Origin: Escherichia coli
GTDB lineage: Bacteria > Pseudomonadota > Gammaproteobacteria > Enterobacterales > Enterobacteriaceae
DNA length: 64,000 nt
Strand: one strand, 5' to 3'
Assembly: GCF_003334785.1 (NCBI RefSeq)
Contig: NZ_QOWV01000003.1
Position numbers: made by a program. Below, piece by piece: positions 54,901-57,900 of this stretch. Positions within the stretch are counted from its first letter, which is position 1. Each line of letters opens with the position of its first letter.

Positions 54901-57900
54901 GAGGCTGAGCTAGACCCGCTTGATGGCAGTTACGTTCTTAATTATGGCGAAGAGAAGGGTATCGAGGGGGTTGCTAAAGGCTATCTGCAACTCACTGCGC
55001 AACCAGCACATTTACGTAACATTATTAGCGACGGTTATTCAGAAGCTTCGGTGTTCAAAACTGCCGGAAGCGACGCTAAAGGCGGTTGGTTTTTCACCTC
55101 CGGTTGGCCGGTAATTAAACCCGATACGCTTTTGATCAATAAAGTCCATGCAGAAAGCCTAAGGCTTGATTGGCTGGCTAAGACCACGCCTCCAGTCGCT
55201 AGTGTTCATCCTACCGTGCCTCTTGCCGCTCCTGCCCCTACTATCGATAACGAGTATGTTAATCGAAAGTATTACACTAAGAATCTGTCGTGGTTATGCT
55301 CTGAATATCTAAAGCATCGGCGCAAGGGCAAGGTATCGGAGTCGGCTATAAGTGATATCCGTAACTATTTCAGCTTTATGATCGAAGCGATGGGTGACAT
55401 TCAGTTGGAAGATTTTGATCGCGATTTCCTCCGGGCTTATGAGAGCAAACTGCGCACGATCCCAGCAAACCGTAATTTAGTCAAAGCTAAATATGGAGTG
55501 AAAACGCTGGATCAGTTAATCGCCAAAGCGGCAGAATGCGGCGATAAATTGATGACTGAGGAATCCGTTAGGAAGTATATCAACGGCATTTATGGTGCAA
55601 TGAAGTGGGCTGTTGCTGACGGTAAGCTACTGAAATCGCCATGCGAAAACTTTTTTCCATCCGATGATAAAGATGAGCGAGATCAGGATCACACTGACAT
55701 ATTTGAACCGCATGAAATTAAAGCGATTTTTTCGTTACCGTGGTTTGAGGCTGGAACTGTTGAACGCAATGCGCAAGGGCGATTCCATCAATATTGCCCG
55801 TTTAACTATTGGGCACCTTTGCTGGGCTTGATGACGGGGGCGCGAGTTAATGAAATCGCTCAGTTACTGCTGAGTGATGTTCTGGCAGACGACGGCGTCT
55901 ATTATTTGAACCTTGAAAGCGATAATGAAAGCGGAAAGAAACTCAAAAATGCTAATGCTCGCCGCAAGATTCCGCTCCATTCAAAGCTGATTAGTCTCGG
56001 TTTCATCGACTACGTGAACGCCTTAAAAGATGCAGGGTATACCCGTCTCTTCCCGGAGCTTAAACCACATAAAACAAAAGGCTATGGTAGGCCAGTTTCC
56101 GCATGGTTCAATGAATCGTTGCTTGCGGGGCGGTTGAAACTCGAGAGGAACAGAAGCAAATCTTTCCATTCTTTTCGCCACTCAGTTTCGACTTTGCTCA
56201 AGGAGAAGGGCGTTAGCTCAGAATTACGAGCGCAGCTACTTGGGCATGTGCGCGGCGAAACTGAAACGGAAGTGCGATATAGCAAAGACCTCAAACCAAT
56301 TCATATGATTGAAGTCGTGGAGAAAATTGATTTTTCGTTACCTGATATAGCGGAATTCAACATTCCTGACGGGCTGGATGCTGTCAGAGATGCGTTGCGA
56401 AGAAAGCGTGGCAAACAAACAGGTTGAATCAGTTACTATTCAGTTGAGTGATGCTTGAATGCGCTGGGACGCTTCCTGGCGCATTTTTTATTAAGGGTGG
56501 TGGATTTCATAGTGCTGAATTTGGAGACGCTCAAAACACGTTTGGTGAAACTTGATGACCTACGATTGCACCCGCAGCCCTTCTACGCTTTCTGATGGTA
56601 GATTTATCACTGTTTTAATGCTGGCCTCTATGTTGCCAATGATGTCTTCGCGCGGGCCGCTGCGCCAGTCATCGCTTGCGTAAAAAGCGTCGAGAACCGT
56701 AGTCATGCTTTTAGGGCTGACAAAGGCGCGAATCAGGTAATAGCAGTCCGGGTCATGCAGAGAGTTACCAAACGAAACAACATCGATCCCGTGGCGTTGG
56801 TGTAGGGGAACACTGATTTCCTGCATAATGGCGTGAAAAGCGGCACCGCTGCCTTTGCGTAAGGTGTATTGCAGTATCTCGACGGTTCTCAAAGCATTAT
56901 CTCCGCGTCGCCTCTGGACGGCTCCCTTGTTGATAGCAATAAAGTAAACCGGACTGGGCCATGAAGCTACTGCTAATCAGACAGTCATCCGTAAGCAAAA
57001 GCTGCGATATGCGGTTCAAACGCGCTGTAAGGCTCTCTGGCGAGTGTTTTAAAGAAGGTAGTCGAAATCATGGTGCAGAATTCGCGGCGCTCTCATAGAG
57101 TGACTGGCGAAGCCAGTTGAAACAAGCGTAGCGGAGTTCGAGCAATCAATGAGAAATCTGGGCGAGCTTTAAGCTTTACCGCGCTTCTTAACTTTTGAGT
57201 CTGTTTGGCTCTATAAGGATAAGCCTGCCGCCGTGGAAATTTTCGGACGCTATGCCTGAGAGGGGCGCTTCCAAACCTAGGGCATCCACTTTTTCGCTCC
57301 CAACTTATCTGGCTGCATTTACACCGCGAACACGTTGAACGTTAGCAGCTTCTGGTTCGTATTTGGTTGTTACGCAGGAGAGGTAAAAACGGCAGGTTTA
57401 CTTTTGACGGCAACGCCATAAGACACCAAACAGCAGAGAAGTGTAATTGTTAAAAATGTTAAAACATAACTTGTTCTTTAAGATGTAAACCCTTCCTCGG
57501 GGGGGAAGCCGGACATATCAACCATAAGGCCATCTGAGAAGATAGCCTGTAGGTTGCTCGGTTCCCCTTGCCAGATGAAGATCAAGTCTTCCTCGTGGTG
57601 TGACGACCTTTCTTGAAAGATGCATTATGCGCAAAAGAAGCTACTCAAGAATCCGCCGATAGCTACTTTCACCCTCTGCTTGGCTGCATCAAACGCTTGC
57701 GCGCCCTACCTACCACAATCAACGTTACGCAGAGTTCCCATCCTGACGTCTTCCGCTAAACAGCGGTGATCTCCACCTACCCGGACCGGTTTACCGCATG
57801 AGGTAGGTGTCAGGAGAGAAGCTAGCACACCATCATTTTAAAGAAAAGTCATATATATCATATGGCTGCGTTCATATTCTGAACGCAGTTATCGATGTTA

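What the first reader, a model, noticed from the sequence alone, without database searches (positions are those of the whole stretch)
56560..56892. Small island protein with TTG start, possibly the surviving tail of a larger decayed gene
The 110-aa ORF starts at TTG with a well-spaced GGAG and has a composition recalling NIPSNAP/ABM-like alpha+beta proteins. It abuts the ORF desert, where protein-like frames continue upstream on the same strand, so it may be the C-terminal remnant of a longer protein.
Basis: inference. Interest (0 to 1): 0.35.

Follow-up and report, generated by a model that had tools for sequence, protein, structure and literature searches.

The report
Intact small NIPSNAP-like island gene
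The 110-codon reading frame is a complete, already annotated gene for a small NIPSNAP-type protein carried on a mobile island next to the leuX tRNA gene of E. coli; it is not the leftover tail of a decayed larger gene, so the finding is ordinary.

Summary
The ORF is real: window 56560-56892, minus strand, 110 aa, TTG start, GGAG 8 nt upstream. It lies in an island at tRNA-Leu(CAA), 133 nt from the 3' end of a 650-aa integrase gene and convergent with it. RefSeq annotates exactly this ORF as "NIPSNAP family protein" (WP_001261095.1). 707 of 5,426 complete E. coli genomes carry it.

A profile of homologues matches solved NIPSNAP proteins. Pfam NIPSNAP hits 28 of 53 homologues, though not the query itself. 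An AlphaFold model (pLDDT 97) superposes on stand-alone bacterial NIPSNAP structures at TM about 0.8, with strand 1 starting at residue 2.

110 of the 120 listed close homologues are 108-111 aa and start MRTVEILQY. TTG is kept in 18 of 20 start-region haplotypes. Several lineages have an in-frame TAA two codons upstream. dN/dS is 0.14-0.42. The upstream "desert" has stops at random density in all six frames and no remnants of related islands' cargo genes.

Biochemical function is unknown. Related islands with the same backbone lack the gene, so it is an accessory cassette.

By-product: the desert holds a sharply bounded, unannotated 332-nt noncoding element (57478-57809).

The parts
56560..56892 (-). 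Coding sequence of the 110-aa NIPSNAP-like protein (TTG start at 56892-56890, TAG stop at 56562-56560). Identical to RefSeq WP_001261095.1; orthologue of O157 Sakai ECs_5246.
   Evidence: ORF list; RefSeq annotation at the same coordinates; 358 homologues; dN/dS 0.14-0.42; AlphaFold pLDDT 97; Foldseek TM about 0.8 to NIPSNAP structures; Sakai locus.
56901..56904 (-). Shine-Dalgarno GGAG, 8 nt before the TTG start. It is part of the conserved cGGAGATAA motif.
   Evidence: Sequence. The motif and TTG are conserved in 18 of 20 distinct start-region haplotypes; one has ATG and one has TTA.
56893..57128 (-). Conserved noncoding 5' region of the gene, 76-88% identical in most other genera and down to 69% in the weakest locus. 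It is not an N-terminal extension. No sigma-70 promoter was recognised in it.
   Evidence: Conservation ends at about 57124-57128 in Enterobacter, Pectobacterium and Yersinia loci. 1- and 2-nt indels, and an in-frame TAA two codons before TTG in the O157, Enterobacter and Klebsiella loci examined. Promoter scan found none.
57030..57092 (.). Copy A of a direct repeat of about 65 nt, a degenerate copy of the integrase-terminator region. It lies upstream of the gene inside the conserved 5' region.
   Evidence: Local alignment score 35 against a shuffled mean of 16 (sd 2). The repeat is stronger in L027 (65), L026 (47) and L008 (47).
56461..56523 (.). Copy B of the same repeat, between the integrase stop and the stop of the NIPSNAP gene. 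Copies A and B together bracket the gene.
   Evidence: In islands without the NIPSNAP gene a single copy sits directly next to the integrase 3' end.
56457..56486 (+). Intrinsic-terminator-like hairpin with a T-run after the integrase gene. It overlaps repeat copy B.
   Evidence: Terminator scan.
54475..56427 (+). Context: large tyrosine integrase (650-aa ORF; RefSeq aa). Homologues carry DUF6538 plus Phage_integrase domains. It is convergent with the NIPSNAP gene.
   Evidence: Pfam domains on homologues.
54342..54426 (+). Context: tRNA-Leu(CAA), the leuX-type tRNA gene at the island's left border.
   Evidence: ARAGORN; Rfam tRNA, 59 bits.

Best explanation
The ORF is an intact, stand-alone gene for a single-domain NIPSNAP-like protein of 110 aa (12.3 kDa, pI 5.7). 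It is translated from a conserved TTG preceded by a conserved GGAG.

The protein folds as a complete ferredoxin-like beta-alpha-beta-beta-alpha-beta unit with a C-terminal helix. This is the dimeric alpha+beta-barrel superfamily that also holds the ABM monooxygenases.

The gene is an accessory cassette in the integrase-proximal slot of SpLE5/OI-172-type integrative islands of Enterobacterales. In this window the island sits at tRNA-Leu(CAA).

Inferred, not shown: like its structural relatives it probably forms a homodimer. It probably binds or converts a small molecule in the pocket between sheet and helices, which would be lined by the family's near-invariant E5, Y9, Y51, R55, Y71, S73, W76 and R81. 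I give that biochemical step about 0.3. The substrate is unknown.
For: Identity and completeness:
- RefSeq annotates the same 333 nt as a NIPSNAP family protein.
- 110 of the 120 listed close homologues are 108-111 aa, and most share the N-terminus.
- 461 cluster representatives match at E<=1e-3. Most full-length matches align query residues 2-107 to their residues 3-108.
- TTG and the Shine-Dalgarno motif are conserved in 18 of 20 haplotypes.
- dN/dS is 0.14-0.42.

Fold and family:
- The profile matches PDB NIPSNAP proteins 1vqs and 2ap6 at E=1.5e-5 and 2.3e-5.
- Pfam NIPSNAP hits 28 of 53 members at E<=1e-3, best 6.6e-11.
- AlphaFold gives pLDDT 97.1 and pTM 0.88, with strand 1 at residues 2-11.
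- The 15 best Foldseek matches are all chains of five stand-alone bacterial NIPSNAP entries (1vqy, 5kak, 5k9f, 5ixu, 1vqs/2ap6) of 102-120 residues, TM 0.78-0.82. ABM proteins follow at 0.55-0.70.

Cassette status:
- The gene sits next to three integrase lineages that are only 35-46% identical to one another, at tRNA-Leu, tRNA-Thr and tRNA-Gly.
- Islands with the same resolvase, noncoding core and integrase lack it: L047, L052, L055, L062, L066 and L071.
- It is bracketed by a direct repeat.
- Distant homologues lie in unrelated chromosomal contexts with no constant neighbour.
Against: - The query alone matches no Pfam, NCBIfam, PADLOC or PHROGs model, so family assignment rests on profiles and fold.
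- No promoter was recognised upstream, and no expression data were examined.
- No ligand, partner or phenotype is known for any close relative, so the biochemical part is inference from the superfamily only.
- The gene is more conserved (83-87% aa) than the neighbouring integrases (35-46%). That could instead point to an island-related role.
Confidence: 0.88

Rival explanations
1. One reading: the ORF is the surviving C-terminal tail of a larger gene whose decayed remains fill the upstream ORF desert.
For: The ORF abuts about 1 kb without annotated genes. The next gene on that strand, DUF1643, is frameshifted in this strain. A few distant relatives are longer, at 222-282 aa, with two domains or fusions.
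Against: - 110 of the 120 listed close homologues are 108-111 aa, and most share the same start.
- The fold is complete from residue 2.
- An in-frame TAA lies two codons upstream in the O157, Klebsiella and Enterobacter loci examined.
- In Klebsiella the upstream neighbour is a divergent GrpB gene 207 nt away.
- The desert has stops at random density in all six frames.
- tblastn with every ORF of 50 aa or more from the related loci held at that point (L002-L016) finds only short, multi-frame, both-strand matches. That is DNA-level conservation, not gene remnants.
- The same 1 kb is unannotated and 95.8% identical in O157, where DUF1643 is intact.
Confidence: 0.02
2. The true product is a 133-134-aa form that starts at an upstream ATG (MAQSGLLY...AINKGAVQRRRGDNA-L-RTVE), as called in a few database entries.
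For: Five of the 120 listed homologues carry this extension. In L014-L016 the ATG is in frame.
Against: - In the window the ATG is out of frame. It heads a separate 40-codon ORF (56897-57019) that ends in the Shine-Dalgarno spacer.
- In the O157, Enterobacter, Klebsiella and Pectobacterium loci examined the extension is closed by stops.
- Indels in this stretch are not multiples of three.
- More distant family members, and the solved structures, have no such extension.
Confidence: 0.03
3. The protein serves the island itself, for example in control of excision or integration, or in sensing for the defence cargo. It would then be more than a passenger gene.
For: It is convergent with the integrase and usually within 0.1-3 kb of its 3' end, in three integrase lineages at three tRNA targets. 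It is far more conserved than those integrases. The surrounding cargo includes defence genes: Shedu SduA_C, RloB/AAA_21, AbiJ and a PDC-S60-like ORF. OI-172 of O157 is a defence island (bioRxiv 10.1101/2025.09.22.677730, abstract listed).
Against: - Six islands with the same backbone lack the gene.
- The protein is acidic (pI 5.7, net charge -3) with an enzyme-like fold. From general knowledge, excisionases are small, basic DNA-binding proteins.
- There is no PADLOC hit.
- Homologues at 40-55% identity sit in ordinary chromosomal contexts.
Confidence: 0.08
4. The ORF is not translated, and the DNA is conserved for a noncoding reason.
For: The start codon is TTG. No promoter was found. The flanking DNA contains strongly conserved noncoding blocks.
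Against: Substitutions concentrate at third codon positions, and dN/dS is 0.14-0.42 in all 15 pairwise comparisons. The frame is open in nearly all homologues. The sequence encodes a confidently predicted, known fold with family-wide conserved residues.
Confidence: 0.01

Closest known systems
Stand-alone bacterial NIPSNAP-domain proteins with solved structures: Agrobacterium Atu4242 (PDB 1VQS/2AP6), Atu5224 (1VQY), and Burkholderia xenovorans 5K9F, 5IXU and 5KAK.
   Same: They are single-domain proteins of 102-120 residues with the same beta-alpha-beta-beta-alpha-beta topology. TM is 0.78-0.82 over about 100 aligned residues. The profile-to-sequence match is E=1.5e-5. Their function is equally unknown.
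   Different: Identity is only 12-21%. The E. coli sequence alone does not reach any Pfam score. This clade is carried on tRNA-integrated islands of Enterobacterales and uses a conserved TTG start.
ABM (antibiotic biosynthesis monooxygenase) family and LsrG-type cofactor-independent enzymes.
   Same: They share the dimeric alpha+beta-barrel superfamily and a similar size. Foldseek probability is 1.0, with TM 0.55-0.70.
   Different: They are weaker structural matches than the NIPSNAP proteins. Pfam ABM reaches only E between 0.003 and 0.1, in 10 of 53 relatives, and never E<=0.001. No catalytic residues were compared.
ECs_5246 of prophage-like element SpLE5, the left arm of O-island 172, in E. 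coli O157:H7 Sakai and EDL933.
   Same: It is the orthologue: 91.6% nt identity, 110 aa, and the same order integrase - NIPSNAP - 1-kb gap - DUF1643 - resolvase at the Leu tRNA (island description in PMC3681947).
   Different: O157 has an extra DUF4160 gene (and IS629 in Sakai) between the integrase and the NIPSNAP gene. Its DUF1643 gene is intact, whereas the window's copy is frameshifted.
Eukaryotic NIPSNAP1/2 mitochondrial proteins.
   Same: They share the domain family name only. This rests on general knowledge and was not tested here.
   Different: From general knowledge they are longer, multi-domain proteins with a role in mitophagy. Nothing here supports a comparable role.

Membership tests
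NIPSNAP (Pfam PF07978) | A significant match of the sequence itself to the Pfam NIPSNAP profile. | tested here: not met
   No Pfam match for the query, even at E<=10.
NIPSNAP (Pfam PF07978) | Clear homologues of the protein match the family profile (transitive membership). | tested here: met
   28 of 53 aligned relatives hit NIPSNAP at E<=0.001 and 40 at E<=0.1, best 6.6e-11. One 83%-identical homologue (P0085) carries a precomputed PF07978 hit.
NIPSNAP (Pfam PF07978) | Profile-level sequence similarity to proteins solved and deposited as NIPSNAP. | tested here: met
   hmmsearch of alignment A1 against PDB: 1vqs E=1.5e-5, 2ap6 2.3e-5, 5ixu 0.0075, 5k9f 0.033.
NIPSNAP (Pfam PF07978) | A single complete ferredoxin-like alpha+beta domain that superposes best on NIPSNAP structures. 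| tested here: met
   Model pLDDT 97.1. The 15 best Foldseek hits are all NIPSNAP entries, TM 0.78-0.82, rmsd 1.7-2.1 A.
NIPSNAP / dimeric alpha+beta barrel superfamily | Homodimer formed by pairing of the beta-sheets. | not testable with these tools
   Only a monomer model could be made. Dimerisation is inferred from the superfamily.
ABM monooxygenase (Pfam PF03992) | A significant profile match and closest structural similarity to ABM enzymes. | tested here: not met
   No relative reaches E<=0.001 (best 3.2e-3). ABM structures rank below all NIPSNAP structures.
Pseudogene fragment (C-terminal remnant) | Intact homologues are longer and extend upstream of the fragment's start. | tested here: not met
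   110 of the 120 listed close homologues are 108-111 aa, and most share the same start. Upstream frames are closed or shifted in several other lineages.
SpLE5 / OI-172-left-arm type integrative island (context) | A tRNA-adjacent large DUF6538-type integrase plus a conserved serine recombinase, with variable cargo between them. | tested here: met
   tRNA-Leu(CAA), integrase and resolvase are present in the window. The same order occurs in Sakai SpLE5 and in loci at tRNA-Thr and tRNA-Gly.

The most novel reading that the evidence does not exclude
The gene itself is ordinary.

The desert is conserved backbone DNA of a mosaic island family. It holds a discrete 332-nt noncoding element (window 57478-57809, probably minus-sense).
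- The element is 96-99% identical between 13 of 14 other islands compared, and 86% in the most divergent (L027). In the five diverged islands where both flanks differ, those flanks are 61-98% identical.
- It has no Rfam, plasmid or phage match.
- All its small ORFs are broken in some variant.

It could be an undescribed island-borne RNA or cis-acting site. The NIPSNAP cassette sits between it and the integrase and might be functionally coupled to it.
Probability: 0.3. Interest if true: 0.5.

Novelty: already known. Interest (0 to 1): 0.1.

Why it matters
For the finding as given, very little. It confirms that a small TTG-initiated gene, already annotated in RefSeq, is real and complete, and it removes a pseudogene hypothesis.

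Two modest points of value come from the context.

1. The gene is a recurrent passenger in the integrase-proximal slot of a family of tRNA-integrating islands. In E. coli O157 that family forms the left arm of OI-172, a defence island. The gene's position is therefore a useful landmark for mapping cargo slots in these islands.

2. The neighbouring 'desert' is not junk. It contains a sharply delimited, highly conserved noncoding element that nobody has annotated and that deserves its own test.

Tried and rejected
Scans and searches that found nothing:
- Single-sequence scans against Pfam, NCBIfam, PADLOC and PHROGs gave no hit. Family assignment needed a profile and a fold.
- Literature searches for NIPSNAP with islands, 'NIPSNAP family protein' in E. 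coli, DUF6538, leuX defence hotspots, SpLE5 and the locus tags found nothing about this gene. Only island-level descriptions of OI-172 turned up.
- Promoter scan of 56380-58000: no sigma-70-like site.
- Rfam, both over 54-60 kb and with laxer filters on the core alone: only the tRNA plus two chance-level hits.
- blastn of the core against plasmids and phages, and a 20-mer scan of viral contigs: nothing. This does not favour mimicry of a known plasmid transfer origin.

Hypotheses tested and dropped:
- Desert as a decayed copy of cargo genes seen in related islands (GrpB, the 338-aa protein, the 192-aa protein, DUF4468, the 308-aa and 109-aa proteins). tblastn found no remnants.
- Desert as an invertible promoter segment. 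A 15-nt inverted repeat lies at 56944-56958 and 57780-57794, and a resolvase/invertase-family gene is nearby. Rejected because 584 genomes match the whole segment as one collinear place, every listed row is a single collinear piece, and only 4 of 662 records have a second place. A 9-nt seed is also expected by chance in 2 kb.
- Base pairing between the core's first hairpin loop and the NIPSNAP leader (the same repeat read as RNA). Not supported. The leader arm is conserved in islands that lack the core (L008) and is partly deleted in L026, which has the core.
- Small proteins encoded in the core. The three candidate ORFs carry stops in O157, L063, L028, L058, L027 and others.
- Eight of the 35 metagenome pattern hits were chance 20-mer matches and were discarded.
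Full report
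**What is at the coordinates**

The ORF list shows a 110-codon ORF at 56560-56892 on the minus strand, starting with TTG. Reading the sequence on the minus strand gives CGGAG-ATAATGCT-TTG. GGAG is therefore at 56904-56901, followed by an 8-nt spacer and TTG at 56892-56890. The stop is TAG at 56562-56560.

The only tRNA in the window is tRNA-Leu(CAA) at 54342-54426. A 650-aa integrase ORF (54475-56427) follows it directly. The 110-aa ORF is convergent with the integrase, with 133 nt between the two stop codons. Between the ORF's start and the next minus-strand gene at 57898 there is no ORF longer than 49 aa. The sequence-level observation is therefore correct.

**Where the window comes from and what is annotated**

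Positions 54300-59200 are 100% identical to many E. coli chromosomes, including Nissle 1917 and ATCC 25922. 583 of 5,426 complete genomes carry at least 80% of this stretch.

In Nissle 1917, RefSeq annotates exactly the same 333 nt as "NIPSNAP family protein", WP_001261095.1. Its neighbours are a site-specific integrase, a frameshifted DUF1643 gene, a recombinase-family (resolvase) gene and defence-type cargo such as AbiJ-NTD4.

The gene alone is found in 707 of 5,426 genomes. In O157:H7 Sakai it is ECs_5246, inside the prophage-like element SpLE5. [quoted passage not shown]

**Is it a real gene?**

A search of 5.8 billion proteins returned 358 homologues. Six representative loci from E. coli, O157, Klebsiella, Enterobacter and Pectobacterium were compared pairwise. 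In all 15 comparisons substitutions concentrate at third codon positions, and dN/dS is 0.14-0.42. The ORF is under purifying selection as a protein.

**Is it the tail of something larger?**

No, on five independent grounds.

1. *Length and start of homologues.* Of the 120 listed homologues (79-99% identical), 29 are 108 aa, 6 are 109, 72 are 110 and 2 are 111. They come from Escherichia, Klebsiella, Enterobacter, Serratia, Yersinia, Pectobacterium, Edwardsiella, Cronobacter and others, and most begin M[RK]T[VI]EILQY.
2. *Start codon.* 20 distinct start-region haplotypes were collected from genomes and metagenomes. 18 have TTG preceded by cGGAGATAAC-like sequence, one has ATG and one has TTA.
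3. *Upstream frame.*
   - The O157, Enterobacter and Klebsiella loci examined have an in-frame TAA two codons before the TTG.
   - The 133/134-aa database entries arise only where a 1-nt difference in the spacer happens to open the upstream frame as far as an ATG.
   - In the window that ATG is out of frame. It heads a 40-codon ORF that ends inside the Shine-Dalgarno spacer.
   - The 230 nt upstream are conserved as DNA but differ by 1- and 2-nt indels.
4. *Fold.* The AlphaFold model built on a 53-sequence alignment has pLDDT 97.1. Its first strand spans residues 2-11, so no structural element is missing at the N-terminus.
5. *Neighbours in other species.* In Klebsiella the next gene upstream is a divergently transcribed GrpB gene 207 nt away.

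Distant relatives (37-55% identity) are also mostly 105-130 aa, aligned end to end. A minority have signal-peptide-like extensions, Clp_N-like fusions or tandem duplications.

**What family is it?**

The single sequence matches nothing in Pfam (even at E<=10), NCBIfam, PADLOC or PHROGs. At the profile level the picture is clear:
- Alignment A1 hits solved proteins deposited as NIPSNAP: 1vqs at E=1.5e-5, 2ap6 at 2.3e-5, then 5ixu and 5k9f more weakly.
- Pfam NIPSNAP matches 28 of the 53 aligned relatives at E<=0.001, best 6.6e-11. ABM never reaches E<=0.001.
- The 15 best Foldseek matches against the PDB are all chains of five stand-alone bacterial NIPSNAP entries of 102-120 residues. TM is 0.78-0.82 and rmsd 1.7-2.1 A. 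ABM monooxygenases and LsrG follow at TM 0.55-0.70.

The RefSeq name is justified, but only through transitive and structural evidence.

**What does it do?**

This is not known for any close relative, and I found no paper on it. Three things can be shown.
- The protein is acidic, with pI 5.7 and net charge -3.
- The near-invariant residues across the family are E5, Y9, L11, F19, P29, G42, Y51, L53, R55, F70, Y71, S73, W76, G79, P80, R81 and I88.
- Homologues at 40-55% identity sit in unrelated chromosomal neighbourhoods with no constant partner gene.

From the superfamily I infer a homodimeric alpha+beta barrel that binds or converts a small molecule in the sheet-helix pocket. I rate that step at about 0.3.

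**Place in the island**

The gene recurs next to three lineages of large DUF6538-type integrases, which target tRNA-Leu(CAA), tRNA-Thr(CGT) and tRNA-Gly(CCC). These integrases are only 35-46% identical to one another. The NIPSNAP protein stays 83-87% identical and the resolvase 84-91%.

Variable genes fill two slots:
- between the integrase and the NIPSNAP gene: nothing in the window, DUF4160 in O157, Shedu SduA_C in Enterobacter;
- between the NIPSNAP gene and the resolvase: GrpB, DUF4468, RloB/AAA_21 and others.

Six islands with the same resolvase, noncoding core and integrase have no NIPSNAP gene at all: L047, L052, L055, L062, L066 and L071.

In the window the gene and its proximal leader are bracketed by a direct repeat of about 65 nt, at 56461-56523 and 57030-57092. 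The repeat is a copy of the integrase-terminator region. NIPSNAP-less islands have a single copy next to the integrase. I therefore read the gene as a common but dispensable cassette, not a backbone function. An island-related role keeps a probability of about 0.08.

**The 'ORF desert'**

It is not decayed coding sequence.
- Stops occur at random density in all six frames.
- tblastn with every ORF of 50 aa or more from the related loci held at that point (L002-L016) gives only short matches in several frames on both strands. That is the signature of DNA-level conservation.
- The desert is built from blocks shared with other islands.

Within the desert a 332-nt core stands out (window 57809-57478 on the minus strand, delimited by nhmmer).
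- It is 96-99% identical across 13 of the 14 other islands compared, and 86% in the most divergent one, L027. In the five diverged islands where both flanks differ (L047, L052, L055, L058, L062), the 5' flanks are 61-66% and the 3' flanks 72-98% identical.
- In O157 the surrounding 461-nt query (57400-57860) is 99.1% identical, while the NIPSNAP gene is 91.6%.
- It is unannotated in every genome listed.
- It has no Rfam match and no plasmid, phage or viral-contig match.
- Its three small ORFs are interrupted in several variants.
- Its first hairpin shows three base pairs with compensatory changes, and U-G pairs that fit the minus strand. The rest is too invariant to test.
- Single-sequence folding is unremarkable, with z about -1.9 on both strands.
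- A TGATATATA box, resembling an extended -10, follows the DUF1643 terminator hairpin and precedes the core.

This is a candidate island-borne RNA or cis-acting DNA site.

**Verdict**

- The fold guess is correct.
- The pseudogene interpretation is refuted.
- The gene is already annotated and widespread, and its biochemical function is unknown.
- Interest in the finding itself is low. The neighbouring conserved noncoding core is the item worth a separate look.

Noticed in passing
window 57478-57809 (probably minus-sense), inside the 'ORF desert' 56893-57897: A sharply bounded 332-nt noncoding core. It is 96-99% identical across 13 of 14 other islands compared (86% in L027); in the five diverged islands where both flanks differ, 5' flanks are 61-66% and 3' flanks 72-98% identical. 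It is unannotated in every genome listed and has no Rfam, plasmid, phage or viral match. Its small ORFs are broken by stops in variants. The first hairpin has 3 compensatory pairs. It is a candidate new ncRNA or cis-acting site.
   Followed up: partly
window 56461-56523 and 57030-57092: A direct repeat of about 65 nt (about 70% identical) brackets the NIPSNAP gene. Both copies resemble the integrase terminator region. The repeat is stronger in related loci L027, L026 and L008. Islands without the gene have one copy next to the integrase, which suggests gain or loss of the cassette at this repeat.
   Followed up: partly
window 54342-59117; loci L002-L031 and L041-L075: This is a mosaic island family. 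Integrases only 35-46% identical target tRNA-Leu(CAA), tRNA-Thr(CGT) or tRNA-Gly(CCC), yet share a resolvase (84-91% aa), the NIPSNAP gene (83-87%) and noncoding blocks (82-90% nt), with variable, often defence-type cargo between them. Extra integrase C-terminal fragments in L019, L022 and L026 hint at tandem accretion.
   Followed up: partly
window 57212-57369 and 57819-57955: Two further noncoding blocks are conserved at 78-92% in Klebsiella, Enterobacter and Kosakonia islands. There they lie between different cargo genes, for example downstream of a 338-aa gene. Their role is unknown.
   Followed up: no
window 57898-58364, minus strand: The DUF1643 gene is frameshifted near its N-terminus in this strain lineage (RefSeq pseudogene in Nissle 1917). 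It is intact at 155 aa in O157:H7 and in Enterobacter vonholyi.
   Followed up: partly
window 59131-59976, plus strand: The 281-aa 'hypothetical protein' just after the resolvase matches the PADLOC candidate defence family PDC-S60 over its N-terminal 160 residues (E=5.8e-27).
   Followed up: no
window 56944-56958 and 57780-57794: A 15-nt inverted repeat (13 of 15 matches) has one arm in the NIPSNAP leader and one in the loop of the core's first hairpin. No inverted arrangement appears among more than 580 genomes, and there is no covariation between the arms. It is probably chance.
   Followed up: yes
loci L017 and L027: A contig labelled 'MAG: Collinsella sp.' (L017) is 99-100% identical to this E. 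coli island at the protein level, tRNA-Leu included, so it is probably mis-binned. A 'Martelella alba' contig (L027) carries an enterobacterial-type island at tRNA-Gly, and its origin is also doubtful.
   Followed up: no
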